Shown: in pieces, positions 4,185 to 63,452 of the stretch
How the letters are laid out: each line of letters starts with the position of its first letter
How positions within the stretch are numbered: position 1 is the first letter of the stretch
Source: a virus
Reading direction: 5' to 3' (one strand)
Virus genome (UHGV): UHGV-0038492
Length of the DNA stretch: 64,000 nucleotides
The notes under the pieces: model-generated
Database searches by the model: none
Told to the model about the DNA's origin: nothing
What the model saw: only the letters and a program-made list of their open reading frames with translations
Made by a program: the position numbers and the translations under genes

Positions 4185-4195
4185 TGGGGTCTCCG

Positions 4196-9761: not shown

Positions 9762-10237
9762 TGCAGCAATTAGATATTACCGAAGACAAAATCTCCGCTA
9801 AATTTCCACAATTACGTGAATACATCAAAGACTTAAATTCGATACGCGAAACACCGGTCCGCATTACCTTAGCGGTAGAAGATGACATTACACACGGTAT
9901 TGCGATTTGGGAACCGGGCAATCTTATCTATTTGGTGGTGGCGGAAGGTTCTCGACGTTTCGGTGTGGGTTCGTTCTTATTGCAGTACGTTCAGTTGAAT
10001 TCCGATCGTCAAATGGTGACGTGTCGTGTCCACCCTTCGAACATTGACGGCCTGTGTTTCTTTTCGAAAAAAGGCTACCAGATTGACCGTTGGTATATCG
10101 CCAGCGACTCTCGTCGGTATTTTCGTATGACGAACGGTAACGTTGTTTCGTCATACGCCCCGCCGGAAGAAGGATATTTGGTGGATTTTATCGAAAACAC
10201 GCCCATCTTTCTCTCTGTTGCGGATAAAATTTATTAA
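9761..10237 (+). CDS. GNAT-family acetyltransferase-like protein (tentative)
   Basis: VVAEGSRRFGVGSFLLQYV resembles the GNAT acetyl-CoA-binding motif A. Confidence 0.4.
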   Translation: MQQLDITEDKISAKFPQLREYIKDLNSIRETPVRITLAVEDDITHGIAIWEPGNLIYLVVAEGSRRFGVGSFLLQYVQLNSDRQMVTCRVHPSNIDGLCFFSKKGYQIDRWYIASDSRRYFRMTNGNVVSSYAPPEEGYLVDFIENTPIFLSVADKIY

Positions 10238-47534: not shown

Positions 47535-48125
47535 ATGGCCGAACGTTGGACTAAAGAAGGTATTATTGAATCCAAAACCGATTTGGAAGGTGGGTACGTC
47601 AACGACCCTGACGACAAAGGTGGAGAAACCTGTCACGGGGTAACACTGACAACTGCACGCGAATACGGGTACAAAGGAAGAATGAAAGATCTGACCCGTG
47701 CGCAAGCGTTTGACATTTACGATCGTGGTTGGTGGAAGAAACTTAAACTCGATGAGATTTTCGCTATCTCGCCGATACTCGCCGACCGGATGTTTGATTT
47801 TGCTATTAACTCTGGCCGTGTTAACTGTGTGAAGTCATTACAACGTATTCTCAACGTTTTAAATAACGAAGGGAAACTTTACGCAGATATTGACACCGAC
47901 GGTGGTATGGGACCTAAAACACTAGGTGCTCTGAATGCTTATCTAAATTACCGTAAAGGCGAGGGATTAGGCATCTTAATCTTTGCGTTAATCTCACACC
48001 AGGTAACCTACTACACGGAAATCTCCGAAAAGCGTAAGAAGAATGAAAAATTCGCTTACGGCTGGTACGGACGTGTGTACAGGGAAATGCCGGATTATGT
48101 AGTGAAGGCGGGGTTAGTAAAATGA
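47535..48125 (+). CDS. endolysin: GH108-type lysozyme-like domain with C-terminal peptidoglycan-binding region
   Basis: N-terminal LEGGYVNDPDDKGGETCHGVT matches the GH108 signature; C-terminal GPKTLGALNAYL fits a PG_binding_3-type region. Confidence 0.7.
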   Translation: MAERWTKEGIIESKTDLEGGYVNDPDDKGGETCHGVTLTTAREYGYKGRMKDLTRAQAFDIYDRGWWKKLKLDEIFAISPILADRMFDFAINSGRVNCVKSLQRILNVLNNEGKLYADIDTDGGMGPKTLGALNAYLNYRKGEGLGILIFALISHQVTYYTEISEKRKKNEKFAYGWYGRVYREMPDYVVKAGLVK

Positions 48126-48226: not shown

Positions 48227-48241
48227 GGAAAGGTGTGGGTA

Positions 48242-48907
48242 ATGGAAAAGCTTCAATATAAACGTTTAGATGATAAGTGGTTTGTATTAACGGAGGATTA
48301 CCATTATCCGTTTACGTTACGTGAGATTTATCACGACCACGTACACTTAGACCGTGCGGTTTATTTAACCGGTGTATTACCTGACACGCAACTGTGGTTA
48401 ACCGCTCCGAAAGGGTTCGTAACGGACTTAGCGTCGATACCCGAACACTTACAGGGAATTTTCCATCCTGACGGGCCTTGGGCACCGGCTGCGTGTATTC
48501 ACGACTTGTTATACCAGAAATGCAGTACGGAACGTAGCTACCCTATGACGCCCGGTGGAAACGTTTCTCGCATTATCGATAAAGAGTTCGCTGACTTAAC
48601 GTTTCTGCGTATTATGCAGTCGTTAGAAATCTCACCGTATATCTGCCAAACGTTTTATAAAGCCGTTGTAGGATTCGGTTGGGATGCTTACGTAGACCCT
48701 AACGCGAAACCGTCTTATACCACTAACGACTACCGTACGTTAGATTACAATCGAAACTATTTGTTCGTTCGCGAGTTTAAGGAGCCTGCTATTCCTGACC
48801 ACGAACGAGTTGATATCACCACAGGTTGTCCCGTTAATGTCAAATACCTGAACATTAAACGGGCTTTTCTGTCTGGGAGGGAAGATGTTTCATCCAAATC
48901 CGAGTAA
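48242..48907 (+). CDS. hypothetical protein
   Basis: ATG at 48242 after AAGGAAAGG; the track start at 48233 is GTG. Confidence 0.55.
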   Translation: MEKLQYKRLDDKWFVLTEDYHYPFTLREIYHDHVHLDRAVYLTGVLPDTQLWLTAPKGFVTDLASIPEHLQGIFHPDGPWAPAACIHDLLYQKCSTERSYPMTPGGNVSRIIDKEFADLTFLRIMQSLEISPYICQTFYKAVVGFGWDAYVDPNAKPSYTTNDYRTLDYNRNYLFVREFKEPAIPDHERVDITTGCPVNVKYLNIKRAFLSGREDVSSKSE

Positions 48908-51315: not shown

Positions 51316-51352
51316 TACCTACCTCCGTAAAGGAGGTAGGTATTTTTTTTTG
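51316..51352. terminator. bidirectional terminator
   Basis: hairpin tacctacctcc-gtaa-aggaggtaggta flanked by an A-run and a T-run. Confidence 0.65.
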
Positions 51353-51359
51353 CCGCTAA

Positions 51360-52031
51360 TTACAGCCCTTGCTCTAATGCAAACGCTTTAATTGAATCGT
51401 AATCACGGGCTTCGGCCCAAGCTCTGACTTCTTTTTTCTGTTCCGTCATTGCCTGATGCAGTTGCTGGTCGCGTTGCACAATAGCACCCAGCAGTGTTTT
51501 GCACTGCTCTAACGTAAACGGTTCGATACGGGTGTTGTTGGCCGTTAACCAATACGCTGGCGCGGTTTCTGACTGAATATAACGACTCAGTGCTACCTGT
51601 GACTTCTCATCTGCCTGGAAAGTGAAATCACCCACTTGAATCTCGGCATACCGCGCATCCTGATAACGGAATTCCAATGCGCTTAGGATTTTCTGAACAT
51701 CGGTAAAGATATACCGCACAGTGGAGCGTAAACCCGTACGAATCTCTTCCAGGTCAATTCCCAACGTGTCGTTAACAAAGTCTTTCGCTTTCTGTAACGT
51801 AAATCGTGCTTCGATTTCAGACATGTCGTAGTTACGCATTTGTTCCAATGCTTCACGATCGGACATCCCATCAATCAATTTATAGTGCAGTAACGCACAA
51901 AAACCCGTACGACCATGATCTTCGCTACCGATTTTTTCCATATAGTTACCATGGCGGTCAATCGGTAAATCGTGCTCAAAATAACGACGACGGATTTCTT
52001 CTTTCGTTAAGCCTTCACCAGTAGCAGACAT
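51360..52031 (-). CDS. hypothetical protein, last gene of the radical-SAM cluster operon
   Basis: 223-codon ORF co-oriented with the cluster. Confidence 0.55.
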   Translation of the reverse strand: MSATGEGLTKEEIRRRYFEHDLPIDRHGNYMEKIGSEDHGRTGFCALLHYKLIDGMSDREALEQMRNYDMSEIEARFTLQKAKDFVNDTLGIDLEEIRTGLRSTVRYIFTDVQKILSALEFRYQDARYAEIQVGDFTFQADEKSQVALSRYIQSETAPAYWLTANNTRIEPFTLEQCKTLLGAIVQRDQQLHQAMTEQKKEVRAWAEARDYDSIKAFALEQGL

Positions 52032-52579
52032 TCATCGTCTCCTTTAATCAATCCTAATTCGATTAACAGTTCAAAATCGATATGACGGAATCTTGTATCA
52101 AAATCCGATTCCCAATCGATGCGGATACCCTGGCACTCTTCTGATGTTAGCTCGGGAAAAATTACGGTATTAAATTTCTCACGCTCATCGTAAAACCCAT
52201 CAATCGGTGAGTTCGGGTTACGCGTTGCGAAAATAGTAATACCAGGGAAAGATAATGCTAACACAGTGATAGATTCTGCGCTGGGCTCACTTAAAGAGCG
52301 GCGTAGAAACGCAATTTTGTGGCGTGGGAAGTCCAATACGCGTTCTTCAAACCCTGGATTACGTTTTTCGATTTCCGCTACCGACAGGTCAGTAAGTTCG
52401 GTGCAATACATTGGGATGATTACAGTCACGCCGTGGCGAATCAGTAAACGTTTTACGTCATCGGTAAAATCTTCGCCGTTAATCATCACGTAACAACCGA
52501 ACAGCTTACTGTTTTCCAGAAACTTATCCAGAAGTCGAATTCTACGCTTCGTAATATTGTTGATCAGAATTGGTTTCAT
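52007..52579 (-). CDS. hypothetical protein in the radical-SAM cluster
   Basis: 190-codon ORF; AAGAGAAG upstream of ATG; start overlaps the upstream gene. Confidence 0.5.
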   Translation of the reverse strand: MKPILINNITKRRIRLLDKFLENSKLFGCYVMINGEDFTDDVKRLLIRHGVTVIIPMYCTELTDLSVAEIEKRNPGFEERVLDFPRHKIAFLRRSLSEPSAESITVLALSFPGITIFATRNPNSPIDGFYDEREKFNTVIFPELTSEECQGIRIDWESDFDTRFRHIDFELLIELGLIKGDDECLLLVKA

Positions 52580-53864
52580 CTTTGGCTTCTCTTAATAATT
52601 TTTCCTTTTGGGCGCGTTCACGAACACAGCGTGGGCAATAACACATACTCGTGTCGTGGAACGCTTTTGCTGACGTCGTACCCATCTTCTGTTTCCAGTA
52701 TTCCGCCACCATCAGTTTCGCTGTCGTCCACCCGCACTGACGTCGCTCAGCGTGATACGCTTTACGGTCTTCCAGTGTCCCTTCACCGTTTTCGTAAGAA
52801 GCCGCAGCGCAGCTACCACAAGCGTGTTTCATCGGACAACCTAAGCACGTCTCTGGATAGTTGGTATATTGTGTTTGAATCTCTTCTAACAATTTACCGT
52901 TGTCCAGGCTGACGAATTCCCGACCTACCAACTCAAATACCGCAGAACGTGATGTTACGGTTGACATAAAGCGATTGCAACCGAAGATCTTACGGTCAAA
53001 ACCTAAACACGTCATGTGTGTTAATGTCCCACAGAACGGACGTAAACGTTCTGGGTTCAACCGCACCGTGTCATTATAAAGTAATTGATCACGCCAGTTC
53101 GGTTCCCAAATCGTATCGAAATCCAACCCTTCTGGGATGATGTGCGATAAGATATTACGTGGGTTGGTGTGTAATCCTTTCTCGACCCAATAATCAATCA
53201 CATCCATCATCTGCAATGCAATTGAAGTAGCCATCCCACGTGGCATAATGTCTTCGAAGGTTACGTTGCCGGAGATAGTTCCGCCACCAGTAATATCAAT
53301 TAATGACTTCATTCCGGCAGCATAGTACGGTAACGTTTCTAACGTAAAGGTCGCCTTTACGCCAAGCTCTGCAATGCCAACCTCTTTTAAGTAGTTATAG
53401 CCTCGTACTGCGGCTTCGTAAGAACCCTGGCGCGTCGTTGTAAAGATACGATAACGGTCATGGGACTCAGGTAAGCCGTCAATTGAAACCCCAACCGAAA
53501 GTTTGTCTTTCCAACGCTCTACGATCTCACGGTTCAACGGGCGATCTAACAACGTCCCGTTTGTGGAAATACTAAACATAAACGGCCGATTATGTTCTTT
53601 ACACAACTGCTCGGCGGTTTCAAATGCAGCCAGCAGCAACTTAGGCTGCATGAACGGTTCACCACCGATAATGTCAATAATAACTTCAACATTCGGTTCG
53701 TTTTTATCGCGTTCAAAACAGGCGTGCAAGAAATCAACAATATCTGCCGCTTTGTTGTTACGCGGGTACTTACGTTCGTAACAATATTCGCAGTCCAGGT
53801 TACACGAAAGGTTCGTTACAATCTGATACGTTAGCTGCTTAGGGAATTCATTTACCTGACTCAT
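52542..53864 (-). CDS. radical SAM enzyme with SPASM-type C-terminal Cys-rich domain (anSME/peptide-maturase-like)
   Basis: CNLDCEYC (CxxxCxxC) at residues 21-28, GGEP SAM motif, C-terminal cysteines in CGTLTHMTC...GC and CLGCPMKHACGSC; GAGGGG upstream of ATG. Confidence 0.8.
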   Translation of the reverse strand: MSQVNEFPKQLTYQIVTNLSCNLDCEYCYERKYPRNNKAADIVDFLHACFERDKNEPNVEVIIDIIGGEPFMQPKLLLAAFETAEQLCKEHNRPFMFSISTNGTLLDRPLNREIVERWKDKLSVGVSIDGLPESHDRYRIFTTTRQGSYEAAVRGYNYLKEVGIAELGVKATFTLETLPYYAAGMKSLIDITGGGTISGNVTFEDIMPRGMATSIALQMMDVIDYWVEKGLHTNPRNILSHIIPEGLDFDTIWEPNWRDQLLYNDTVRLNPERLRPFCGTLTHMTCLGFDRKIFGCNRFMSTVTSRSAVFELVGREFVSLDNGKLLEEIQTQYTNYPETCLGCPMKHACGSCAAASYENGEGTLEDRKAYHAERRQCGWTTAKLMVAEYWKQKMGTTSAKAFHDTSMCYCPRCVRERAQKEKLLREAKDETNSDQQYYEA

Positions 53865-54771
53865 TTGCCGCCCCTCTATTACGACCTGCCATCACTACGC
53901 GACGAATATATTCGTACGCCTCTACACCGATAGAGAAGGCCAGTTGGTTACACCCGGATTCCAGTACGTTAGGTGCGTTCTGGAGCTGGTGCTCACCACC
54001 GTCTGCATTAATCCAGAGACTTTCGCTGCAAACGTTACACCCTTCTTCAAACACTTTACTTACCGTAAAACCACATTCACGACTGTTTACTACATTCAGT
54101 CGTTCAATGTTGTCCTGAACCCGATAGTAGCCGTAAATAAAGTTCATGACGTGGTCAGGTGATAAAGGCTTTGGCATTTTCGCATCTAAGAGTAACGTCA
54201 TTGCTCGGAAACCGTAATGGTAAATCGCGCTGTGCAGCTGAATAATATCTTCATGCCAACGTTTATCCCCCAAACGGTCCCGTGTCAAGACACCCCAAGT
54301 CTGGACATTATCCAGCTCGTAGATCGTTTCCAGTGCTTCGTAACAGCCTTCGTCAATAAAGCGCATAAATGGACGCTCAGACGACTTAAACCCATCGATG
54401 CTAACGTAGACATTGTCAAACTGTTTTAGCAACGGGAGATGCGATTTACGCATCTTTAAGCCATTGGTATACAACTGGTGTTTGAGTTCTGGACGAATCA
54501 CTTTTAATTCGTCAACAAACGCCTCAATTTTACGGGTTGCCAATAGTGGCTCACCACCCGTCCACTGAATTTCGGTAATGGTTGGATTAGCTTCCAGCGC
54601 TTCCAAAATTCGCTCACGTTGAAACTCTCGCGGAGAATCTTCACGATTCATGTAATAGGCTCCACCGCAGAAGCTACAATCCAGGTTACACTTGGACGTA
54701 GCGACTACGGACAATACGGTGGGTTTATCGTATAAACGATTCGATAACCTTGGTTCTGCATTGGTTGTCAT
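53848..54771 (-). CDS. radical SAM enzyme (paralog, shorter Cys-containing C-terminus)
   Basis: CNLDCSFC at residues 28-35, TGGEPLL motif, C-terminal CGF...CNVC. Confidence 0.75.
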   Translation of the reverse strand: MTTNAEPRLSNRLYDKPTVLSVVATSKCNLDCSFCGGAYYMNREDSPREFQRERILEALEANPTITEIQWTGGEPLLATRKIEAFVDELKVIRPELKHQLYTNGLKMRKSHLPLLKQFDNVYVSIDGFKSSERPFMRFIDEGCYEALETIYELDNVQTWGVLTRDRLGDKRWHEDIIQLHSAIYHYGFRAMTLLLDAKMPKPLSPDHVMNFIYGYYRVQDNIERLNVVNSRECGFTVSKVFEEGCNVCSESLWINADGGEHQLQNAPNVLESGCNQLAFSIGVEAYEYIRRVVMAGRNRGAANESGK

Positions 54772-54792
54772 TGCAGGTGACTCCGGTCGTTT

Positions 54793-55680
54793 TTAAATAT
54801 AATCAATGGCGAACAAAGGATCGTCGTCTACGTTAGCACCAGGGGTTAACAAGAATGGAGAGTTATACGCTTCCAAAATACGGTTAAGGTCTTTATAACG
54901 GACATTTAAACGTTCTAAATCCGCTAACGTTACGTTACGGTCCAACACCGCCGACACTGCTGCTTTCTCTTCGTCAGTTAACGTGACTTTCGTCATTAAG
55001 AAACTAACGAGTTTTGCCAGATCCGCTTCTGTTGACGGATGCTCGCCGATACGCGTTTGAATCAAATGCTGCATCCATGGTTTACGGATGCGTTTTGTGA
55101 TCTCATGTTCATCCGTTAGGGCAACCCACACGGAACGTTCACGATCCCACACGAACTTATAGCTATACGCCATTAAATCCGCTAAACAATTAATCCCTAA
55201 GGCTTCGTACCCTTCAATTTCAATATACGATTCCGTATCGAAATAGTTCTTCGTTTCTGGTGTTACCAGGGTAAAGAAATACGGGAACGAGCCCAAGTAA
55301 TCTGGTGACCACCAACGACGGGCAACCGGTTTTGCACCCATTTCTTCAAACGGGGTAAAGAACAATTCCATATCCACGGAGTTATTCAAAATCCCATCAC
55401 TAAAGAAATATTTACCTGCAACCAATTTACCACGCAACTCAGAGTCACCGGTAAATACCACTACACTTTCTGCCGTCAGATCACGAATCTTAAACGTATT
55501 TTCTACACGATAGTTTTTACGATCGGTAAAGAAACGTCCGCGCACTTTAGGCCATTCGCCTGGCAATTGCGTCAGCAGACGAACTTCATCTGCTAAGTGT
55601 GCACGTACGGAATCAGGGGAAGAAATGTGAAGTGGATGATTGAAAATCGTTTTGTACGCTAAATGTAAATCATTCTTCAT
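54793..55680 (-). CDS. hypothetical protein in the radical-SAM cluster (possible accessory/partner protein)
   Basis: ATG at 55680 after GGAG; the track start at 55692 is TTG. Confidence 0.55.
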   Translation of the reverse strand: MKNDLHLAYKTIFNHPLHISSPDSVRAHLADEVRLLTQLPGEWPKVRGRFFTDRKNYRVENTFKIRDLTAESVVVFTGDSELRGKLVAGKYFFSDGILNNSVDMELFFTPFEEMGAKPVARRWWSPDYLGSFPYFFTLVTPETKNYFDTESYIEIEGYEALGINCLADLMAYSYKFVWDRERSVWVALTDEHEITKRIRKPWMQHLIQTRIGEHPSTEADLAKLVSFLMTKVTLTDEEKAAVSAVLDRNVTLADLERLNVRYKDLNRILEAYNSPFLLTPGANVDDDPLFAIDYI

Positions 55681-55947
55681 TGATTGCTCCAACTATTTTA
55701 CGGTCAAACGGACGTTCAGGGTATAGAACCCACCCCGCCATTGTCTGCCGGTAACTTGAAACTCAGCAGTAAACCCATTCGATTTACTCGGTTGCTGGTT
55801 AATCGCCATACTACCGCCGGAATTCTTAAAACCTCTAAAGAGATAGAAGCAGAAGTCGCATTACCGATTGAGTCTATCTTAAAACTAGCCGCATCTGTAA
55901 AATTGACAGTAATACCATCACCCATCGCAACTCGGGGAAAGGCTTAC

Positions 55948-56154
55948 TTACCGCCCCCCTGCTCCCTTACTACAGCTACCGCTGCACGACCAGCTACATC
56001 CACCGTTACAGTTGTAGTGGCTTAAAGGTAAACCGGCAAGGTTATTGGTTGAAGACACGGTACCCTGGTTTGCAATATAGTTGTTTGCGTTAGCGGTCGT
56101 AATATACCCTTCCGCTGTTACTAAACGATCACGAAGGTTCTTAAGGCTAATCAC
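55948..56154 (-). CDS. Cys-rich peptide, short third copy (leader plus 4-Cys core)
   Basis: GTG start 2 nt after the upstream stop with GGGAGG SD; leader ISLKNLRDRL... and core CNGGCSWSCSGSC. Confidence 0.5.
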   Translation of the reverse strand: MISLKNLRDRLVTAEGYITTANANNYIANQGTVSSTNNLAGLPLSHYNCNGGCSWSCSGSCSKGAGGR

Positions 56155-56156
56155 AA

Positions 56157-56555
56157 TTACCTCCCAGAACACCCACCGGAACAAGAACCTGAACAGCCTG
56201 AAGAACAGTTCCCTGTACACGCGTTAGAACAGCTCCCCGTGCAACTTCCTGAACACCCACCGGAGCAGGTATTCGAACATCCGCTACAGCCCGCGCTACA
56301 ACCTGATACGCAGTTTGCAGAACACGAGGAACCACAACCACCGGATGCGTTTCCTGTGCAGCCACCAGAACAACTCGAACACGTCCAGCTACAACTACCT
56401 CCGCAGTCGTAGTGATTGCGGGCCTGTCCTCCGAATAAGTCTGCGTTGTTTGTCGCTTTCCCGCGAATATAGTTTTGTACTGCACCCGTATTCTTCAATG
56501 CAGTGCTGTCAATGTTATTTAACCGCGCTTGTAGCGCAGGTAATCCAATTGCCAT
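56157..56555 (-). CDS. Cys/Gly/Ser-rich peptide precursor (about 50-aa Cys-free leader, about 80-aa core with 20 Cys)
   Basis: AAGAGGTG upstream of ATG; core of repeated C-x2/3 units such as CSGGCSGSCTGSCSNAC. Confidence 0.65.
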   Translation of the reverse strand: MAIGLPALQARLNNIDSTALKNTGAVQNYIRGKATNNADLFGGQARNHYDCGGSCSWTCSSCSGGCTGNASGGCGSSCSANCVSGCSAGCSGCSNTCSGGCSGSCTGSCSNACTGNCSSGCSGSCSGGCSGR

Positions 56556-56565
56556 TTTTCACCTC

Positions 56566-56961
56566 TTAGGTTGGGCCAGAACAGCCGCCAGAGCAGGCAC
56601 CAGAACAACCCGTAGAACAACGGCCTGAGCAAGCACCCCCACAGGTTCCGCTACAACCTGAACACCCACCTGAACACGTTGAGCTACATCCAGTACATTG
56701 GTTACCGCACGCAGAGGAGCAGCTGCCTACACACACAGACGTACAAGTACCCGAACAGCTCGTACAACCATGCGTACAGCCGTTTGAGCACGTCCAGCTA
56801 CAACTACCTCCGCAGTCTAACCGGTTTGGCGTCCAACCCGAAAATGTGTCGGCTGCATTATGTGCTTTCGACGCAACTTGCGGATCAACACGTGGGCCAG
56901 TTGCCATTTGGTTCTCTACGTTGGTGATTCGGTCACGTACGTTTTTAACACTGATCGCCAT
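56566..56961 (-). CDS. Cys/Gly/Ser-rich peptide precursor (leader plus core with 21 Cys)
   Basis: ATG at 56961 after TAAGGA; leader VKNVRDRITNVENQ...; core begins CGGSCSWTCS. Confidence 0.65.
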   Translation of the reverse strand: MAISVKNVRDRITNVENQMATGPRVDPQVASKAHNAADTFSGWTPNRLDCGGSCSWTCSNGCTHGCTSCSGTCTSVCVGSCSSACGNQCTGCSSTCSGGCSGCSGTCGGACSGRCSTGCSGACSGGCSGPT

Positions 56962-56982
56962 CACGTATCCTTAAAATAAAAA

Positions 56983-57020
56983 AGAATGGAGGACTACGTC
57001 CATAAACATAGTTCCTCCTG
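56983..57020 (-). terminator. hairpin plus T-run between the 399-aa fibre-like gene and the first precursor gene
   Basis: on the minus strand, arms ggaggaac/gtcctcc are followed by ttcttttttatttt. Confidence 0.4.
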
Positions 57021-57028
57021 TAATTAAA

Positions 57029-58228
57029 TTATTTCGTACCCGCTTCCGCCTGTACGTCATCACGAGACGTCAGGTTAGCGTTAACGTGTACTGCGGCCTG
57101 AACCACGCCACCGTATTTCTTGTGGAGATAACCGGTGTGTGGGTTATCTGCCGCAATGTGGTTTTGTAGGTTTTGGTTCGCTTGACTGATTGCGTTCGTG
57201 TTATTGTTAACCTGCTGTTTAAGCGCATCCAGGCTTTGTTGTACCTGATTGATTTTCTGATCGGTTTCTTGACCCTGTTGCTCTAACGCGTCAACACGCT
57301 GAATAACCTGATTCAGTTTTGTGTTTAAATCGTTGATGTTCTTTTGCAGCTGTAACACTAACGAGTTCAGGTTCGCTAACGCTAAGGCCATTTTCTGGTA
57401 GTTTTGAGCAACCACGTTAAGTTGGTCGTTCCACGCTTCCAGAGAGTTGACAACAGCGTCAATACGTTTACCTAAAGCTTCGTCCGCTTTCTTCAGTGCA
57501 TTGATTTCCGTAATCGTTGCATCGATAGCAGACTGAACGTCACGAATAAGCGCACGGATTTCAGTTTCTCTTAACCCGTTAACCTGGTGAATATCAAGAT
57601 GGTGAACGTTACCCGTTGCGTTGATGTGTGCATTTAAAGCATCTAAGAAGTCATTTTTCAGACTTTCTAAAATCGCTTTAATGTTCTCTAACTGTACCGC
57701 GTCACCAGAACTGATCGCATCTTTAATCCCCGCCAATACGGTGATGATATATTCAAAACCGTAGATGTCACCCACGTCTTTATACGTCGGTGCAGACGGG
57801 AATGTATCCGGTACGTTACGTAAGTCTTTAAACGCAATCGTACGGTTATCGAGGTTTAACTCAGCAATCGCCTGTTCGATAGCCACGATGTTCGCAGACT
57901 GTGGACCACCAACGACCTGCGCAGATACCGTAATATCTGTTGGAATCGCTGTGTTAGTGACCACCACCGCCATAACAATCTCGCGGTTTTTAGTCAGCTT
58001 TTCATAAGTCGGGTGTGCAAAAATCAACTCATAATCGGTACCACGTTCGTAGGTTGCTTCCGGTCGGTTAGCAACGCGTAAACGGAACGTGTCCGCAAAG
58101 AACGGACCATCAGGAAAAGCAAAAGCACGGTTTACTTTACCTGTACCTAACGTAATCTGACGCTCCACAGCGTTAGACGTTAGCGAGCCCGTTAAATCTA
58201 AAGGATATTGATAAACAATGGAGGCCAT
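57029..58228 (-). CDS. fibrous coiled-coil virion protein (fibre/whisker-like)
   Basis: ATG at 58228 after AAGGAGAG; long heptad-like Q/N/L-rich C-terminal half; N-terminal PDGPFF motif shared with the 1727-aa protein. Confidence 0.65.
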   Translation of the reverse strand: MASIVYQYPLDLTGSLTSNAVERQITLGTGKVNRAFAFPDGPFFADTFRLRVANRPEATYERGTDYELIFAHPTYEKLTKNREIVMAVVVTNTAIPTDITVSAQVVGGPQSANIVAIEQAIAELNLDNRTIAFKDLRNVPDTFPSAPTYKDVGDIYGFEYIITVLAGIKDAISSGDAVQLENIKAILESLKNDFLDALNAHINATGNVHHLDIHQVNGLRETEIRALIRDVQSAIDATITEINALKKADEALGKRIDAVVNSLEAWNDQLNVVAQNYQKMALALANLNSLVLQLQKNINDLNTKLNQVIQRVDALEQQGQETDQKINQVQQSLDALKQQVNNNTNAISQANQNLQNHIAADNPHTGYLHKKYGGVVQAAVHVNANLTSRDDVQAEAGTK

Positions 58229-58268
58229 GGCCACTCTCCTTTATTCGAGACGTCCTTGTCCCGAGTCA

Positions 58269-61200
58269 TTAAGATGTAAACATAAGATTGAACTGGAGTT
58301 TGTCGATATCGCGAGTTTCTGCTGGATTCACACCATCGTACGCGGTCGCTACGTAAACCGTTAGCGTGCCGTTAGCGTAAGACGATTTCACCGGTGGGTT
58401 AGTTCCAGTCTGACCATCTCGCACAATGAGTGTAGGTTCACTTGGGAGATTATCAAACTGACCCTTGACCGCTTTATACACCAAACCAGATTGCGCAGAC
58501 AGTTCAGTGTCCGTAAAGACAAAGAACGGTGTGTCGATATCAGCCTGTTTAATCGTGGTACCGGTCTCGACGTCAATCAACTGTACCGCCCCAAACTTCG
58601 TACGATAACTTTCATACTCGTTCTTCGGAATAACGAACGTGACGTGAACGCGAACCTCCTCGGCAGGTTTAAACCCAGCGTGCTCTTTTTCCAGGTACTG
58701 GTTGGCGGTTAACGTGACGTCCTGCTCTTTCATCGTACCACCGGCCTGGTTTAATGCATAGCGAGCTTCAACAATACCGGTTGGCGCAGCAAGTCGCAGT
58801 TTCAGAGCACGATTTGCCGTTCCTGGATTACCTGGCACCTGAACGCGCAAACTCAATGCTAAGTAAACATTCGTTCCGGTAGTCGGTTTCGTATACGCAC
58901 CAATCCATTTCATGTTCGCAGACGCTGCCTGCGTGTTCTCAGAAGCAGTGGCTGTCGCAATGTTAGCAGCTACCGCTTTCTGCCAGAATTGGTCAGCGCA
59001 GTTCTCATACGCTACCCTGGCCACGCTCTTATAACCCGAATACGTTTCCTGAATTGGTAACTTAGGACGCGTCGTAATACCAGACAATGAACCCCATTTT
59101 TGACCGTCAACATACCCTTCGCCCTTCGACGCAGACGCCGTAGGCGCTTTAACGGGTTTGTTAACCAGTGTTAATAGAGGACCCGTCTTTCTGTCAAACG
59201 CTGCTGCAACATCATGTTGGTCGATAATTGCTGCGTGGTCTTCCAGTTCTTTCACACGACCCAAACGTTTTACTTTGTCGATGTTGATACCAGTAATACG
59301 GCTGGAATCGGTGGTTACTGACCCGACGAACAGTCTTGTTGAAGTGTCAGCTAACTGCTCCAAACCGATACGGTATTGCGCAGTAGAACCTGACACCTCA
59401 GCGTGCACGTAGAACGTCTGGTTAGCGTGGTTAGACGGGAATTCGCTGCTTAAATCCACAGACCACGTTGGGAGTGTGTAACTGCTGCTACCGAAGTCTA
59501 ACTTGACTTCTTCTGTCAAATACAGAATCCAGCCTTCTGCTGTCTCCACACCGGCAATAATAACAGCCTGACCTCCGGTTGAGAACCTCGTGTCGTTAAC
59601 GAACTCTGCGGCTGTATACGCGTTACCTGAACAGAAAACACGGTCAGCTTTAGAGTAAATCAACGCCATCTTGTCCCAATTACCCGCACCCATATAGCAC
59701 CCAGATTCTGGGTTATGTGCAGGGGCCATCTGTCGTAACTGTGACTTACCAGGAACGCGAGACCAACCTGAACCTGGGTCGTAGGTATACTTCGCGGCGT
59801 AACCTAGTGCATTTAAGTCCCCGATATTTCGGATAGTTAACGTATAAGGTAGCCAAATACCGAAGTTTACACCGTCGGCAGAAGCAAAAATTGGCTGACC
59901 GACACGTCGTGTTTTATTACCCGCTTCTTCCCTCAGAGACTGATAACTTAAACCATAATCGAGGTCTAAGAACCAGTCCACCAACTTAAAGGTGGCTGAG
60001 TTGAAACGTAAGTAGCCGTTCTCTTTAGATGGACTCACCATGAAGTAATAGATGTCAAGAATTCGACGTCCGTTACTTGAGGTTTTCATGCACGAAACTT
60101 GCAACAAGTCAAATTCGCACACGGTGTTGATACCCAACATCCAAAGAGCAAACAGTGCATTACCGGTTTGATGTGCAGCACTGATGCGCTCATTCGCGTA
60201 ACCATTTGCTTGACCAGATGGCGCACCGTCAACGATCATCCGAATCATTTTCTGACGATCGGCTTCTTCTAGCGTTAAGCGTTCGGAAGACAATGCGAAA
60301 TTACCGTAGATGTTACGATACGGGAACGTTTCTGCTTTGGTCAAATACCAACCGTTTAGCTGCCCGTGACGCTCCTCAGGAGTCATGCACGCAGCCATAC
60401 AGCTAAGCTGCTCGTAGAGCGTTGGATCGACTTCACGACGGTTGTTGTTCGGACCGTATCCGCTATAACCCGGAACATCGTAAGGTTTGTTCGGATCAAC
60501 TTCTACTTCGATGGTGTAACGGTTACGTGGGTTAGACAACCACACTTTATTCGAACCGCCTATTCCGACAGGATGGGAAAGACCGATGGTGTAAATAGAA
60601 CCGCGACCTTTATCCCAGGTAAACGTTCCTTCGCCCGAGGTGTTGTTTGGGTTATCGTAACGCAGATAATCGAAAAGCTCTTTGCCTTGTGTACCCTTAA
60701 TAGAAACATTAGGCATTTGGTCCGCATCGTTAATCTGCCAGCAGGAAAGCATCATTCCTGTACCGTTAGGTTTTGCATACGTCGCGAAACAACGGTTGTT
60801 TGCCTGACCACCACCCCACTTACGACTGGTTTCTACAGTTGAACCATCCGCGAACGAGAGTGCAGTAGCATCAGCCTTGATGGGGAAGCGTTCGCGGCCT
60901 TCTAACGTAACCTTGCCCGTCAACGTATCGATTGTAAAACTTGTTGCCCATTGACGAAAGTTAATTTGTGAGCTGTCGGCCGCTGCAAACCACACAGTAG
61001 GCATATGGTTCACACGAATCACGCTTTCGCGTACCGCACACGCGTGGTTACATTCTGGCCCGTGAACAAAGTTGTGGCCAATTGTCCATTTAGCCCGTGC
61101 TTCCGGCGTCAAATACGTAAAGAATTGACCCGTCTGCGACTCTTCGGTTTTCTGGCCAATACGTAGGCAGAGGTTATCTCCGAATTGTCCCATTTCACCG

Positions 61201-63452
61201 GTTAGTGTTACACGTTCAAATTCTAACGTAGTGTTAGTAGACAAATCGTCTTTACGTAAGCGCCATGCTGCAACAGCGTAAGCAGAGTTATTTACCGTGG
61301 AGCGGAGAAGATAAACATAGTCCTCAACCAACACAACGTCATCGGCTTCTGGCCACGGATTCCAGGTTTGTTCTGTAGTACCGCTGGGGTTACCGTTACG
61401 GTACATAGGCATCGTGACACGACATACCACCGTGTGTTTAGTGTGGTCCATCGAACCATTAAACAGCACCAAATAACGATTATTGTCAGAACCCAGGCAA
61501 ATAATCGCTTCCTGACCACCGATCAATATCGCTTTTAGGGTCACTCCAGGATATTTACTCATCCCGGCAGGGTGATATTTCACTGAGGTCTGCTGCGGAT
61601 TTACAAACGCGTTTGAGGTGTTAATGTCCGCGTAGCCGTAATAAATGGCTTCTGTACCCGGCACGCCATTAGAACCGTTACGTAGCGAATAAACCTTACC
61701 CTGCTGATACCCAACAACCCCTTTCTGGTAAGACTGGTTTTTGGTATAGCCCGCGTAGTTACCTAACGCTGGGATAGGTAAGAAGTTCTTATTACCGAAC
61801 TTCGCACCGCCTACCGTCCATGCCGGTAAGATGGTATTCAGTTTATCAGAGACTTTCTTAATCTCTTTTGCGAACAACCACCCTTGACGTGACGTGACAG
61901 CTTTATCATTAGTGGTGTCAATTGCATCCCACAGCTGTAAGACACCGTCAACCGTTGCACTACCAATTGGGACGTTATCCAAGTCAGCAGTGGTGTGGGT
62001 GTGCGTTTTCAAACTCTTGTTTTTCAACACGTTCGTTAACGCTTTTGTCACAGGCTTAGCACTCGGTATGGTGTTATCCATCTTATCGATACCGAAATCG
62101 GTTTTCGTTAAGGTTAACACCATCTTGTCGCCCGTCTTAACAAACCCTTTACCGTTAACGGTATAGTCATCGTCAACGTACAGGTCCAAACGGTCTTTTA
62201 GTTCGGTTACGGCTTTCTGGGAGATGGCAGTACCTAACGCCGCAGACGTAGAGATGTTCGTAATCGAGAACAACCCATAAACTGATTCGGACGCTGTGGG
62301 AATATTCGCGTTTAACGTGACCGGGTTAGTCTGTTTTGCAGTACCGTACGGTTTTACGGTGTCTGACGCTTTGAAATACGCGTTTGCTTCAAGCAACGTT
62401 ACTGACGTCAGATACATGTTCACCATTTCTGGCGTGACCAGGTACACGGAGTTATAAACCGGTGCTAATACATCCTGTTCTGACCCCGAGTGAACCCAAA
62501 GCGTATTCAGACCCGCACTAAACTCCACCGCTAAACCTGATTCGTTATTGTCCTGGTCTGCTTTAATCACTAACGGTTGCGGTGAGGTAATTAACCACTT
62601 ATCACCACGAATACTGATGATGTGACCACCTGACGTTTTAAACGTTAATTCATTACCGTTCGTGGTACCCCATCGACCGTAAACAGTACCGAGGGCTTCA
62701 CCCATTAACTGATCAACGTCGGATTGCTCGATACCCGCTGAACCCATCAGCGTAGCCAATTCGTCAATCGTCAACCCAAATGCTTTTGTGGCGTCAACAG
62801 CGCGTCCTAATACGGGGAGAGCAGCAACGTCGTCAGTGGTATAGTGATGCGCGTTAGGGTTACGGTGATGCTGGTATAATTCTTCGTCGAAAACCTTTTT
62901 CCCGTTCTCGTAAATCAGGTTAGTGACTTCGCTAAACGCAGCATCCAACTCCGTAGAACGCTTAATGATTTTCTTGCGAATGTCTTCTAACGCCTTAACA
63001 ACCTCGTCCCTCAGAATCGCTTCTTCTAAGTTAGCAGGCGGGTCGATAGGCTGAATAACCGGCGCATACGCCATTAGTTCAGACCAGTCCACGTTACGTG
63101 GGTCTTTCAGGTCAGTACGAACTAAGAACTTCCCGATTTCAGATTGTGGTACACGGTATTGTCGTGCTACCCCTAAAATCTCATATTCGATTTCTGTTGC
63201 GGTAAGCAACATAAACCCGCCATAAATCTGATCTTGCTCAGCTTCGGCGAGTTCTTTAAAGTAATAGCCTAAATAGTAGTCCAACCCCTCAATCAGAGTA
63301 CGACGTCCGTTAGGCGCGGTATCGTCGGCTACTGTGAGTTTTAATCCGATACGATAAAAAGGTCCTTCAGGCGGAATGACCACGTTAAATCGGTTAGGGT
63401 ACGTCGCTGTGCTTAACGTACCGTTAAACTGCGCCGCGTCTTCTCTCGGCAT
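58269..63452 (-). CDS. very large structural protein (1727 aa), probably tail fibre/host-specificity protein
   Basis: AGGAG upstream of ATG; N-terminal PPEGPFY motif parallels the 399-aa protein. Confidence 0.7.
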   Translation of the reverse strand: MPREDAAQFNGTLSTATYPNRFNVVIPPEGPFYRIGLKLTVADDTAPNGRRTLIEGLDYYLGYYFKELAEAEQDQIYGGFMLLTATEIEYEILGVARQYRVPQSEIGKFLVRTDLKDPRNVDWSELMAYAPVIQPIDPPANLEEAILRDEVVKALEDIRKKIIKRSTELDAAFSEVTNLIYENGKKVFDEELYQHHRNPNAHHYTTDDVAALPVLGRAVDATKAFGLTIDELATLMGSAGIEQSDVDQLMGEALGTVYGRWGTTNGNELTFKTSGGHIISIRGDKWLITSPQPLVIKADQDNNESGLAVEFSAGLNTLWVHSGSEQDVLAPVYNSVYLVTPEMVNMYLTSVTLLEANAYFKASDTVKPYGTAKQTNPVTLNANIPTASESVYGLFSITNISTSAALGTAISQKAVTELKDRLDLYVDDDYTVNGKGFVKTGDKMVLTLTKTDFGIDKMDNTIPSAKPVTKALTNVLKNKSLKTHTHTTADLDNVPIGSATVDGVLQLWDAIDTTNDKAVTSRQGWLFAKEIKKVSDKLNTILPAWTVGGAKFGNKNFLPIPALGNYAGYTKNQSYQKGVVGYQQGKVYSLRNGSNGVPGTEAIYYGYADINTSNAFVNPQQTSVKYHPAGMSKYPGVTLKAILIGGQEAIICLGSDNNRYLVLFNGSMDHTKHTVVCRVTMPMYRNGNPSGTTEQTWNPWPEADDVVLVEDYVYLLRSTVNNSAYAVAAWRLRKDDLSTNTTLEFERVTLTGEMGQFGDNLCLRIGQKTEESQTGQFFTYLTPEARAKWTIGHNFVHGPECNHACAVRESVIRVNHMPTVWFAAADSSQINFRQWATSFTIDTLTGKVTLEGRERFPIKADATALSFADGSTVETSRKWGGGQANNRCFATYAKPNGTGMMLSCWQINDADQMPNVSIKGTQGKELFDYLRYDNPNNTSGEGTFTWDKGRGSIYTIGLSHPVGIGGSNKVWLSNPRNRYTIEVEVDPNKPYDVPGYSGYGPNNNRREVDPTLYEQLSCMAACMTPEERHGQLNGWYLTKAETFPYRNIYGNFALSSERLTLEEADRQKMIRMIVDGAPSGQANGYANERISAAHQTGNALFALWMLGINTVCEFDLLQVSCMKTSSNGRRILDIYYFMVSPSKENGYLRFNSATFKLVDWFLDLDYGLSYQSLREEAGNKTRRVGQPIFASADGVNFGIWLPYTLTIRNIGDLNALGYAAKYTYDPGSGWSRVPGKSQLRQMAPAHNPESGCYMGAGNWDKMALIYSKADRVFCSGNAYTAAEFVNDTRFSTGGQAVIIAGVETAEGWILYLTEEVKLDFGSSSYTLPTWSVDLSSEFPSNHANQTFYVHAEVSGSTAQYRIGLEQLADTSTRLFVGSVTTDSSRITGINIDKVKRLGRVKELEDHAAIIDQHDVAAAFDRKTGPLLTLVNKPVKAPTASASKGEGYVDGQKWGSLSGITTRPKLPIQETYSGYKSVARVAYENCADQFWQKAVAANIATATASENTQAASANMKWIGAYTKPTTGTNVYLALSLRVQVPGNPGTANRALKLRLAAPTGIVEARYALNQAGGTMKEQDVTLTANQYLEKEHAGFKPAEEVRVHVTFVIPKNEYESYRTKFGAVQLIDVETGTTIKQADIDTPFFVFTDTELSAQSGLVYKAVKGQFDNLPSEPTLIVRDGQTGTNPPVKSSYANGTLTVYVATAYDGVNPAETRDIDKLQFNLMFTS

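What the first reader, a model, noticed from the sequence alone, without database searches (positions are those of the whole stretch)
52542..54771. Two paralogous radical-SAM enzymes, only one with a full SPASM-like C-terminal cysteine cluster
Both proteins carry the CxxxCxxC cluster within the first 35 residues (CNLDCEYC, CNLDCSFC) and a GGEP-type SAM motif. The 440-aa protein has about seven extra C-terminal cysteines in SPASM-like spacing; the 307-aa protein has only a short CGF...CNVC tail. Two distinct maturases next to periodic substrates could mean sequential or position-specific modifications. Their genes overlap (17 nt), implying translational coupling.
Basis: partly seen in the sequence, partly recalled or inferred. 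Interest (0 to 1): 0.7.

Follow-up and report, generated by a model that had tools for sequence, protein, structure and literature searches.

The report
Radical-SAM pair that matures phage fibres
Two different iron-sulfur radical enzymes and a helper protein sit next to small cysteine-repeat tail-fibre proteins in a giant enterobacterial phage, and the same gene set recurs beside tail-fibre genes in unrelated phages. This suggests that phages chemically modify, probably cross-link, their fibre tips, which has not been described.

Summary
Two overlapping minus-strand genes (52542-53864, 440 aa; 53848-54771, 307 aa; 17-nt overlap) encode real radical-SAM enzymes.

- **The 440-aa protein** has a complete SPASM domain: 8 conserved Cys, spaced as in anSME. 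It also has a CxCxxC tail found only in the jumbo-phage clade.
- **The 307-aa protein** has a truncated, twitch-like C-terminal domain with three conserved Cys (C245, C248, C274).
- **Relationship:** the two are related only through the radical-SAM core (22-25% identity), so they are not recent paralogs.

The wider context changes the interpretation. The pair belongs to a conserved four-part module: a fibre protein ending in (C-S/T-G-x)n, a 250-300-aa accessory protein, the short rSAM, and the SPASM rSAM. I found this module in Seoulvirus-like jumbo phages, a P2-like Campylobacter prophage, a siphovirus-like Deferribacter prophage and metagenomic phages.

The SPASM enzyme belongs to a sister clade of the uncharacterised TIGR04115 "CXXX-repeat" maturases. 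Canonical TIGR04115 members also lie next to Cys-repeat proteins on viral contigs, but without the second enzyme or the accessory protein.

Most likely function: radical modification, probably thioether cross-linking, of fibre C-terminal tails. The chemistry and the division of labour between the enzymes are inferred, not shown. I found no literature on this.

The parts
52542..53864 (-). SPASM-type radical-SAM enzyme, 440 aa (homolog of SPN3US gp163)
   Evidence: Pfam PF04055 57 bits. Best NCBIfam hits are TIGR04115 at 116.9 bits (cutoff 350) and PapB at 115.9 bits. AF2 pLDDT 90.9. Foldseek best match is CteB 5wgg, E 7.5e-16. The profile aligns through the SPASM region of CteB and anSME. Conserved Cys: 21/25/28 | 278/286/296/340/343/349/352/377 | 408/410/413.
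53848..54771 (-). Short radical-SAM enzyme, 307 aa, with a truncated twitch-like C-terminal domain carrying 3 conserved Cys (homolog of SPN3US gp164)
53848..53864 (-). 17-nt overlap between the stop of the 307-aa gene and the start of the 440-aa gene, with a GAGGGG ribosome-binding site just upstream
   Evidence: Read directly from the sequence.
54793..55692 (-). Accessory protein of unknown fold, 299 aa from the listed TTG start. The likely true start is ATG 55680, giving MKNDLHLAY as in homologs.
   Evidence: phrog_8030, unknown function. No Pfam, NCBIfam or PDB sequence hit. A profile search finds it in every paired locus except L018 and in no single-enzyme locus. Only 90 clusters among 1.84 billion representative proteins. 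Distant members again sit directly upstream of a short rSAM and a long rSAM.
55948..56154 (-). Mini-fibre C, 68 aa, GTG start with a GGGAGG ribosome-binding site; ends in ...HYNCNGGCSWSCSGSCSKGAGGR (4 Cys)
   Evidence: 68-aa orthologs are present in SPN3US and Erwinia phage pEa_SNUABM_29.
56157..56555 (-). Mini-fibre B, 132 aa, with 20 Cys mostly at period 4 (C-S/T-G-x)
   Evidence: phrog_6085. TIGR04114 Cys-rich repeat 20.7 bits, cutoff 20. Spacing statistics.
56566..56961 (-). Mini-fibre A, 131 aa (ATG at 56961), with 21 Cys at period 4 or 3
   Evidence: phrog_6085. The N-terminal region and the KA.NA..(L/F)(G/S)G motif are shared with the Deferribacter prophage fibre.
52007..52579 (-). 190-aa protein of unknown function; its gene overlaps the 3' end of the 440-aa gene by 38 nt. 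Possible module member in jumbo phages only.
   Evidence: phrog_7988, unknown function. Syntenic in SPN3US (gp162) and the E. coli 'plasmid' phage.
51360..52031 (-). DUF4376 protein, 223 aa, last gene of the operon (25-nt overlap with the 190-aa gene)
   Evidence: PF14301 E 1.3e-11. Weak tail and tail-fibre PHROG hits. A DUF4376 gene also lies next to the module in L087.
57029..58234 (-). 401-aa coiled-coil fibre-like virion protein (homolog of SPN3US gp167, 'virion structural protein 20')
   Evidence: phrog_2163, virion structural protein, E 1e-102. Annotation.
58269..63452 (-). 1727-aa tail / baseplate-periphery protein (homolog of SPN3US gp168)
   Evidence: phrog_7449. gp168 is a tail protein similar to phiKZ gp131, which lies at the baseplate periphery and may associate with fibres (PMC5105663).
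51316..51342 (.). Bidirectional terminator-like hairpin (11 bp) closing the minus-strand operon

Best explanation
The two radical-SAM genes are the catalytic core of a phage fibre-maturation module.

**Shown**
- The module has four conserved parts:
  1. One or more fibre proteins whose C-terminus is a (Cys-Ser/Thr-Gly-x)n ladder. Here these are three 'mini-fibres' of 131, 132 and 68 aa.
  2. A 250-300-aa accessory protein.
  3. A short rSAM with a radical-SAM cluster and a truncated SPASM/twitch-like domain carrying three conserved Cys.
  4. A SPASM rSAM with a radical-SAM cluster and eight conserved SPASM Cys.
- The set recurs beside tail-fibre genes in unrelated phage types.

**Inferred**
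- After translation, the accessory protein presents the fibre tail to the enzymes. It would stand in for the recognition domain that both enzymes lack.
- The SPASM enzyme abstracts H atoms via 5'-deoxyadenosyl radicals and joins Cys sulfurs to nearby carbons. This would give sacti- or ranthi-type thioethers, as made by its nearest relatives CteB, PapB and QhpD.
- The short enzyme performs a second, distinct radical step on the same tail. Its three-Cys domain would leave an open iron site that could bind a substrate thiolate.
- The product would be a densely cross-linked, protease- and heat-resistant fibre tip.
- Tight gene overlaps would keep the proteins in fixed proportions.
For: **Enzyme identity**
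- Searches place both proteins among peptide/protein-modifying SPASM/twitch rSAMs.
- The catalytic motifs and Cys ligands are conserved across homologs.

**Pairing with Cys-repeat substrates**
- 80 of 83 non-redundant loci carry a same-strand CxxxC-repeat ORF.
- In the whole 64-kb window, such ORFs occur only in this operon.

**The four-part module in unrelated phages**
- Jumbo phages L001-L017.
- A Campylobacter P2-like prophage, where a tail fibre (phrog_327, E 1e-54) ends in GCNGCSGSCSGSCSSGC....
- A Deferribacter prophage, next to a GpJ-like tail tip.
- The 213-kb phage L018, with a 600-aa fibre.
- L087 and L088.

**Other support**
- The pre-repeat region of the mini-fibres is homologous to that of full-length fibres.
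- Neighbouring genes are tail and baseplate proteins.
- Canonical TIGR04115 enzymes on viral contigs (401-497 bits) also sit beside Cys-repeat proteins.
- The relative L017 has a second short-rSAM copy. The two copies are 63% identical and keep all three conserved Cys.
Against: - There is no experimental evidence of any modification.
- It is not shown that the mini-fibres are in virions. The held SPN3US proteomics supplements contain no gp163-167 strings, and those searches could not have found the mis-annotated ORFs.
- The SPASM domain has 8 Cys, like anSME, which makes formylglycine. CteB, the thioether synthase, has Ala at the position equivalent to C286, leaving an open site. The Cys count therefore does not specifically favour thioether chemistry.
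- The repeats lack the Asp/Glu acceptors used by PapB and QhpD.
- The Pfam SPASM model did not report a hit.
- The accessory protein's role is pure inference. It has no detectable fold relative.
- I could not read model coordinates, so cluster geometry was not checked.
Confidence: 0.55

Rival explanations
1. Same substrates, different chemistry. The enzymes modify the Cys ladder without forming thioether cross-links. Possibilities include oxidising Cys to formylglycine or thioaldehyde (as anSME does), epimerising residues (as EpeE/YydG does), or C-methylation. The two enzymes might catalyse two such different reactions.
For: - The 8-Cys, fully ligated SPASM pattern matches anSME spacing.
- anSME is among the top structural matches for both enzymes.
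- EpeE is among the Foldseek matches for both enzymes.
- The repeats have no acidic acceptor residues.
Against: - The closest sequence families are the thioether formers and the CXXX-repeat family: CteB E 3e-37 against anSME 6e-18 with the family profile, and PapB and TIGR04115 at the top of NCBIfam.
- A ladder of 20 formylglycines has no precedent or obvious use.
Confidence: 0.2
2. Only the SPASM enzyme is the maturase. The short rSAM is a non-equivalent helper: for example, a subunit that recruits substrate, an electron or cluster donor, or an enzyme that acts on the accessory protein or on another fibre component.
For: - Canonical TIGR04115 systems manage with a single enzyme.
- The short enzyme always co-occurs with the accessory protein.
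- Two-rSAM complexes are known: TrnC/TrnD of thuricin CD (abstract of PMC12093266, listed).
Against: - The radical-SAM Cys triad, the GGE motif and many core residues are invariant in 31 homologs, which argues for catalysis.
- In L017 the short enzyme is duplicated, which fits specialisation for different substrates.
Confidence: 0.13
3. The Cys-repeat products are classical secreted RiPP toxins or signals, or metal-binding peptides, and are not virion parts. The link to fibre genes would then be coincidental or regulatory.
For: - In this window they are short separate ORFs (68-132 aa) with about 50-aa N-terminal regions, which resembles a leader-core layout.
- TIGR04114 and TIGR04115 were defined as a peptide/maturase pair (family names).
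Against: - No protease, transporter or immunity gene is in the operon.
- In at least five other lineages the repeat is fused to the C-terminus of a bona fide tail fibre.
- The N-terminal region is homologous to the pre-repeat region of those fibres.
Confidence: 0.08
4. The rSAM genes are auxiliary metabolic genes unrelated to the neighbouring ORFs, with roles such as cofactor, nucleotide or DNA-modification chemistry (MoaA-, viperin-, QueE- or NrdG-like).
For: The 307-aa protein's NCBIfam hits include the W-cofactor maturase, MoaA, viperin, QueE and NrdG. Public records have annotated the pair as albA and moaA.
Against: - Those hits cover only the N-terminal core and score 34-47 bits against cutoffs of 131-380.
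- Synteny with Cys-repeat fibres holds across unrelated phages.
Confidence: 0.04

Closest known systems
TIGR04115 / TIGR04114: 'radical SAM peptide maturase, CXXX-repeat target family' and its Cys-rich repeat target. This pair was defined in silico, and I found no experimental study.
   Same: - It is the best NCBIfam hit of the 440-aa enzyme, aligned over residues 10-371.
- The substrates hit the TIGR04114 repeat model.
- Canonical members on viral contigs also lie beside CxxxC-repeat proteins that hit the same PHROG, phrog_6085.
   Different: - The score is 116.9 bits against a cutoff of 350, so this enzyme is not a member but belongs to a sister clade.
- Canonical loci have one enzyme, with no short rSAM and no accessory protein.
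- Their repeats contain more Asp, Glu and Lys.
PapB / PapA (freyrasin, a ranthipeptide): a SPASM rSAM that makes six Cys-Asp thioethers in CXXXD repeats
   Same: - It is the second-best NCBIfam hit, at 115.9 bits.
- Its substrate is also a period-repeat Cys peptide (PMC12373016).
   Different: - The score is below the cutoff of 340.
- The phage repeats have essentially no Asp or Glu acceptor.
- PapB relies on a leader peptide and an RRE. The phage enzymes start their Cys triad at residues 21 and 28.
CteB / SCIFF (sactipeptide thioether synthase, PDB 5wgg)
   Different: - CteB has an N-terminal RRE of about 100 residues; its Cys triad starts near residue 105.
- CteB has Ala where the phage enzyme has C286, which gives CteB an open auxiliary-cluster site.
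- The short phage enzyme lacks the second half of the SPASM domain.
QhpD / QhpC (maturation of quinohemoprotein amine dehydrogenase)
   Same: From my own knowledge: a SPASM rSAM that installs thioether cross-links in a protein subunit rather than a free peptide. The NCBIfam hit TIGR03906 scores 61 bits.
   Different: - The score is far below the cutoff of 453.
- The acceptors are Asp and Glu.
- It uses a single enzyme.
- The context is bacterial metabolism, not a virion.
Paired rSAM systems: HxsB/HxsC (His-Xaa-Ser system) and TrnC/TrnD (thuricin CD)
   Same: - The architecture is the same: a long SPASM rSAM plus a second rSAM encoded together beside a repeat or Cys-containing substrate.
- The 440-aa enzyme hits HxsB at 76.5 bits, and the short enzymes hit HxsC at 39-49 bits.
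   Different: - Scores are far below the cutoffs (370 and 268).
- The substrate has no His-Xaa-Ser repeats.
- These systems have no link to phage structural proteins.
Twitch-domain rSAMs (SkfB, MoaA, BtrN)
   Different: - The N_Twi_rSAM model scores 37.7 bits against a cutoff of 170.
- The Cys pattern CxxC-x25-C is its own.

Membership tests
Radical SAM superfamily (PF04055) | CxxxCxxC cluster motif, with a Pfam score above the gathering cutoff | tested here: met
   Both proteins meet it: 57 and 53 bits against 29.5. The Cys triads are invariant in 56 and 31 homologs.
Radical SAM superfamily (PF04055) | GGE SAM-binding motif | tested here: met
   IGGEP (residues 66-70) and TGGEP (71-75). G67/G68/E69 and G72/G73 are invariant, and E74 is at least 90% conserved.
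SPASM domain (440-aa protein) | Seven- or eight-Cys pattern C-x9-15-G-x4-C ... C-x2-C-x5-C-x3-C ... C that binds two auxiliary 4Fe-4S clusters | tested here: met
   The pattern is C278-x7-C286-x9-C296 ... C340-x2-C343-x5-C349-x2-C352 ... C377, with 7 Cys invariant and C286 in 52 of 56. The family profile aligns through the SPASM region of CteB and anSME. Full-length fold matches have TM 0.65. Caveats: Pfam PF13186 gave no hit at E<0.1, and the last spacing is x2 rather than x3.
SPASM domain (307-aa protein) | Same seven-Cys pattern | tested here: not met
   Only three conserved C-terminal Cys are present, 245, 248 and 274. The protein ends 33 residues after C274.
Twitch-domain rSAM (307-aa protein) | A truncated SPASM domain (beta-hairpin plus helix) that binds one auxiliary cluster | tested here: inconclusive
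   [not shown]
TIGR04115 CXXX-repeat maturase | Score at or above the curated cutoff of 350 bits | tested here: not met
   The 440-aa protein scores 116.9 bits. Viral single-enzyme relatives score 401-497 bits.
TIGR04115 CXXX-repeat maturase | Encoded next to a CXXX-repeat protein | tested here: met
   Three such ORFs lie 1.2-2.2 kb upstream in the same operon. TIGR04114 scores 20.7 bits against a cutoff of 20.
PapB-type ranthipeptide maturase (NF047865) | Score at or above 340 bits, and a Cys-X3-Asp/Glu acceptor motif in the substrate | tested here: not met
   The score is 115.9 bits. Neither D nor E is among the 12 commonest residues of the paired-type repeats, each of which is below 0.3%.
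HxsB/HxsC paired rSAM system | Scores at or above 370 and 268 bits, and a His-Xaa-Ser repeat substrate | tested here: not met
   Scores are 76.5 and 38.9 bits. No HxS repeats are present.
Classical RiPP pathway | A leader peptide recognised by an RRE/PqqD-like domain, with the leader removed by a protease | tested here: inconclusive
   There is no N-terminal extension before the Cys triad in either enzyme. No PqqD/RRE hit was found in any operon protein, and no protease or transporter is encoded. The accessory protein's fold is unknown. Leader removal cannot be tested with these tools.
Phage tail-fibre protein (the substrates) | Homology to known fibre domains, or presence in virions | tested here: inconclusive
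   The window's mini-fibres hit only phrog_6085, of unknown function. Their pre-repeat region is homologous to that of the Deferribacter prophage fibre-like protein, which lies beside a GpJ-like tail tip. The Campylobacter Cys-tailed protein is a clear tail fibre (phrog_327, E 1e-54). Presence in virions was not tested.

The most novel reading that the evidence does not exclude
Phage receptor-binding fibres carry a C-terminal ladder of radical-installed covalent cross-links. The ladder would be made by a dedicated two-enzyme radical-SAM system plus a new kind of substrate-presenting protein. If so:
- RiPP-type radical chemistry is used to build virion structural proteins.
- The uncharacterised TIGR04115 CXXX-repeat family would largely be a phage fibre-maturation system, on the evidence of the viral contigs examined here.
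- The short three-Cys enzyme would define a new catalytic type that works together with a SPASM partner.
Probability: 0.4. Interest if true: 0.85.

Novelty: new variant of a known kind. Interest (0 to 1): 0.7.

Why it matters
**For phage biology.** Post-translational covalent chemistry on tail fibres by radical-SAM enzymes is, as far as I could find, undescribed. It would add a new layer to how phages build stable receptor-binding organelles. It would also explain why conserved 'radical SAM' genes sit among structural genes of SPN3US-like jumbo phages, which are candidates for therapy and biocontrol.

**For enzymology.**
- It gives the orphan CXXX-repeat maturase family a concrete, testable substrate and biological role.
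- It offers a natural two-enzyme system in which a full SPASM enzyme and a truncated three-Cys enzyme act on one very regular substrate.
- It points to a new accessory protein family with only 90 clusters in 1.84 billion representative proteins.

**For annotation.** The substrate genes are systematically missed or called in the wrong frame. Examples are SPN3US gp166, PGAP on an E. coli 'plasmid', and metagenome gene callers. Proteomic searches of virions could therefore not have seen these proteins.

Tried and rejected
1. **Recent paralogy of the two enzymes: rejected.** They share 25% identity in the core only, and the C-terminal domains do not align.
2. **Membership in TIGR04115, PapB, HxsB/C, SCIFF, anSME or QhpD families: rejected.** All scores are far below the curated cutoffs.
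3. **Non-peptide roles for the 307-aa enzyme (MoaA, W-cofactor, viperin, QueE, NrdG): rejected.**
   - Those hits cover only the core and score low.
   - The synteny argues against such roles.
4. **PapB-like Cys-Asp chemistry: unlikely.** The repeats lack acidic residues.
5. **Identifying the accessory protein led nowhere.**
   - No hit in Pfam, NCBIfam or PADLOC-independent PDB profile searches.
   - The exhaustive profile search found only family members of similar length.
6. **Literature: six searches found no paper on this system.**
   - The searches combined radical SAM or SPASM with phage, SPN3US, tail fiber, CXXX, TIGR04115 and cysteine-rich.
   - The TIGRFAMs 2013 paper mentions SPASM only in general terms.
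7. **SPN3US proteomics supplements:** they hold no gp163-167 strings, which is uninformative.
8. **The 255-nt spacer with a 69-aa ORF (55716-55925):** no match in phages or in the fetched loci. It remains unexplained.
9. **Sigma-70 promoter scan:** fewer hits than in shuffled sequence, so uninformative. phiKZ-like phages use their own RNA polymerases (my own knowledge).


Full report
**The observation**

The window is part of a ~225-kb jumbo phage. It is related at about 72% nucleotide identity to Salmonella phage SPN3US (Seoulvirus) and to Erwinia phages.

- The 17-nt overlap ATGAGTCAGGTAAATGA is real and is preceded by a GAGGGG ribosome-binding site.
- Both proteins carry CxxxCxxC near the N-terminus and a GGEP motif. 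Both pass the Pfam Radical_SAM cutoff: 57 and 53 bits against 29.5.
- They are homologous only through the radical-SAM core. BLASTP gives 25% identity over 151 aligned columns. hhalign gives 98% probability over residues 15-206 vs 8-214, with nothing aligned beyond that. 'Paralogous' is therefore true only at superfamily level.

**The 440-aa enzyme**

- *Family hits.* Its best NCBIfam hits are TIGR04115 ('radical SAM peptide maturase, CXXX-repeat target family', 116.9 bits, cutoff 350, aligned over residues 10-371) and the PapB ranthipeptide maturase (115.9 bits, cutoff 340).
- *Structure.* An alignment of 56 homologs (A1) gave an AlphaFold model with pLDDT 90.9. Its best solved-structure matches are:
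  - CteB (5wgg), E 7.5e-16, TM 0.65;
  - ChlB;
  - anSME;
  - TigE and SuiB.
- *SPASM region.* The family profile aligns with CteB through the SPASM region (E 3e-37) and with anSME (E 6e-18).
- *Cysteines.* There are 16:
  - 21/25/28 form the radical-SAM triad.
  - 278, 296, 340, 343, 349, 352 and 377 are invariant in 56 sequences, and C286 is present in 52. This is a complete eight-Cys SPASM pattern whose spacing mirrors anSME.
  - CteB has Ala at the position equivalent to C286.
  - C408/C410/C413 (CxCxxC), together with C49, are conserved only in the 26 jumbo-phage members. They are absent from shorter prophage homologs.
- *No recognition domain.* There is no N-terminal extension that could hold a RiPP recognition element.

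**The 307-aa enzyme**

- *Distribution.* Word-seeded search found only 40 relatives, largely on contigs of 150-283 kb.
- *Cysteines.* In the 31-sequence alignment (A2), the radical-SAM triad is invariant. So are C248 and C274. C245 is present in 27 of 31 and shifted by one residue in the other four.
- *Structure.* The model (pLDDT 87.9) shows six core strands, a long helix, then three short strands and two helices carrying the three Cys.
- *Family hits.* NCBIfam hits to MoaA, W-cofactor maturase, viperin, QueE and NrdG cover only the N-terminal core and score far below their cutoffs.
- *Reading.* I read it as a truncated-SPASM (twitch-like) enzyme with three Cys ligands. That pattern could leave one iron of an auxiliary cluster free. 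This is inference, because I could not read model coordinates.

**The operon**

On the minus strand, from upstream to downstream:

| Coordinates | Product | Evidence |
|---|---|---|
| 58269-63452 | 1727-aa protein. Its SPN3US homolog gp168 is a tail protein similar to phiKZ gp131, at the baseplate periphery. | PMC5105663, |
| 57029-58234 | 401-aa coiled-coil virion protein | phrog_2163, |
| about 57018-56975 | Terminator-like hairpin (dG -19.4, z -4.0) | |
| 56566-56961 | Cys-repeat ORF, 131 aa | |
| 56157-56555 | Cys-repeat ORF, 132 aa | |
| 55948-56154 | Cys-repeat ORF, 68 aa, GTG start | |
| 54793-55692 | 299-aa protein of unknown function | phrog_8030 |
| 53848-54771 and 52542-53864 | The two rSAM genes | see above |
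| 52007-52579 | 190-aa unknown; overlaps the 440-aa gene by 38 nt | |
| 51360-52031 | DUF4376 protein; 25-nt overlap | |
| 51316-51342 | Strong terminator-like hairpin | |

The Cys-repeat regions have Cys every fourth residue (86%) or every third (14%). The consensus is C-[S/T]-G-[S/G/T], with almost no acidic residues.

**Comparative genomics**

*Prophage homologs.* The nearest 'bacterial' homologs of the 440-aa enzyme are in prophages.

- In Campylobacter pinnipediorum, a P2-like tail cluster contains:
  - a tail fibre (phrog_327, E 1e-54) ending in ...GCNGCSGSCSGSCSSGCTACSGCSGSCSGKSDGCGC;
  - then a 250-aa protein;
  - then a 400-aa SPASM rSAM;
  - then a 284-aa short rSAM.
- In Deferribacter abyssi, next to a GpJ-like tail tip, the order is:
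  - a 302-aa fibre with KATNADQLGGQAGSYYRCSDCSWTCSSSC...;
  - a 250-aa protein;
  - a 263-aa short rSAM;
  - a 385-aa SPASM rSAM.

*Viral-contig scan.* A scan of viral contigs returned 80 loci. HMMs built from A1, A2 and the accessory family split them into two architectures.

- The 'paired' type has the accessory protein, the short rSAM and a SPASM rSAM.
  - Its members are the window, the jumbo phages L001-L017, both prophages, L018 and L019/L020.
  - In L018 the accessory-family profile found no hit.
- The 'single' type has one enzyme, no short rSAM and no accessory protein (L021-L086).
  - Of four tested, three meet the TIGR04115 cutoff (401-497 bits) and one falls short at 308 bits.

*Association with Cys repeats.* In 80 of 83 non-redundant loci a same-strand CxxxC-repeat ORF lies in the flank.

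*Accessory family.*
- An exhaustive profile search found only 90 clusters among 1.84 billion representatives.
- Distant members again sit directly upstream of a short and a long rSAM.
- Where sequence upstream is available in L087 and L088, they lie downstream of a protein with a Cys-repeat C-terminus.
- In L089 a 2OG-Fe(II) oxygenase gene lies upstream instead.

*Mini-fibres.* The pre-repeat region of the window's small proteins is homologous to that of the Deferribacter fibre (phrog_6085 positions 17-117). I therefore regard them as 'mini-fibres': an N-terminal attachment-like segment, the KA.NA..(L/F)(G/S)G motif, then the Cys ladder.

**Mechanism**

*Shown:*
- Both enzymes belong to the peptide/protein-modifying rSAM families named above.
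- They co-occur strictly with the accessory protein and with Cys-repeat fibre tails across unrelated phages.
- Their catalytic residues are conserved.

*Inferred:*
- The accessory protein presents the tail to the enzymes.
- The SPASM enzyme forms Cys-derived cross-links, by analogy with CteB, PapB and QhpD.
- The short enzyme performs a second, distinct step.
- The product is a rigid, resistant fibre tip.

*Points against the specific thioether reading:*
- The fully ligated eight-Cys SPASM pattern resembles anSME, which makes formylglycine.
- The repeats lack acidic acceptor residues.

*One hint of substrate specialisation:* the close relative L017 has a second short-rSAM copy between two mini-fibre genes. 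It is 63% identical to the main copy and keeps the three Cys.

**What is known**

- The genes have been annotated as 'putative radical SAM superfamily protein 1/2' in SPN3US, and PHROG families exist for all parts.
- TIGR04115 and TIGR04114 were defined computationally.
- I found no paper that characterises the CXXX-repeat system or that links radical-SAM enzymes to phage fibres.
- I file this as a new variant of a known kind: a rSAM maturase with a Cys-repeat substrate. It is distinguished by the obligatory second enzyme, the accessory protein, and the structural-protein substrate.

**Limits**

- There is no experimental evidence of modification or of virion incorporation.
- The locus set was seeded from the SPASM enzyme's own motifs, so it says nothing about Cys-repeat proteins that lack such enzymes.

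Noticed in passing
L001 9167-10196 (SPN3US); L091 5485-6690 (E. coli NZ_CP173450.1); L088 1-182: The Cys-repeat genes are systematically missed or mis-called. SPN3US gp166 is annotated in the wrong frame (9385-9720, where the real ORF is 9389-9793), and the other two ORFs are unannotated. In a related E. coli 'plasmid', PGAP annotates only an antisense ORF across this stretch. A metagenome gene caller chose the wrong frame in L088.
   Followed up: yes
window 52542-54771; proteins P0121, P0001, P0265-P0268: Identical or near-identical copies of both rSAM proteins lie on ~222-228-kb contigs in hundreds of Salmonella, E. coli and Shigella isolate assemblies. One complete E. coli genome (strain 98232, urine) lists a related 221,873-bp circular 'plasmid' that is really a jumbo phage. 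This suggests a carrier or pseudolysogenic state, or common contamination.
   Followed up: partly
L017 3576-4484 and 6094-7014: A 93%-identical relative of this phage has a second copy of the short rSAM, inserted between two mini-fibre genes. It is 63% identical to the main copy, and all three conserved C-terminal Cys are kept.
   Followed up: partly
window 52542-53864 (residues C49, C408, C410, C413): Four extra Cys are conserved only in the jumbo-phage clade of the SPASM enzyme: one near the N-terminus and a C-terminal CxCxxC. They could form a fourth metal or cluster site. Geometry could not be checked.
   Followed up: partly
window 55693-55947: A 255-nt spacer lies between mini-fibre C and the accessory gene and holds a 69-aa minus-strand ORF (55716-55925). 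The orthologous genes in SPN3US and L017 are nearly adjacent. The spacer has no match in the phage collection or in the fetched loci.
   Followed up: partly
window 56975-57018 (minus strand) and 51316-51342: A stable hairpin followed by a U-run (dG -19.4 kcal/mol, z -4.0) separates the 401-aa fibre gene from the first Cys-repeat gene. An 11-bp bidirectional terminator-like hairpin closes the operon where it converges with plus-strand genes.
   Followed up: partly
L089 103-741: In one metagenomic contig, a 2OG-Fe(II) oxygenase gene sits directly upstream of the accessory protein and the rSAM pair. This may be a further tailoring enzyme.
   Followed up: no
L018 4062-6980: In a 213-kb phage, the module has a short rSAM that appears split or frameshifted (4062-4777). 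It also has a 473-aa protein whose N-terminal half resembles a short rSAM, with a C-terminal extension whose relationship I did not determine. The accessory-family profile did not detect the 239-aa ORF that lies between them.
   Followed up: no
window 40000-64000 vs SPN3US: Across 24 kb, megablast against SPN3US-like phages detects only the stretch from the rSAM genes to the accessory gene (window 52543-55693). These enzyme genes are the most conserved DNA in an otherwise diverged tail-fibre region.
   Followed up: partly
L021-L086 (for example L058 6517-6900, L042 5988-6930, L021 6145-6858): Canonical TIGR04115 viral loci have one or two small ORFs of unknown function (110-210 aa) between the Cys-repeat gene and the rSAM gene. 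These may be their own accessory proteins. The loci also hold phage-like late genes: a lysozyme-like ORF in L021, and large ORFs just upstream of the Cys-repeat gene in L042 and L058.
   Followed up: no
window 47535-48125: This ORF corresponds in position to SPN3US gp110, annotated 'endolysin'. The next gene, 48233-48907, corresponds to the one RefSeq annotates as 'tail assembly chaperone'. Neither is part of the finding.
   Followed up: no
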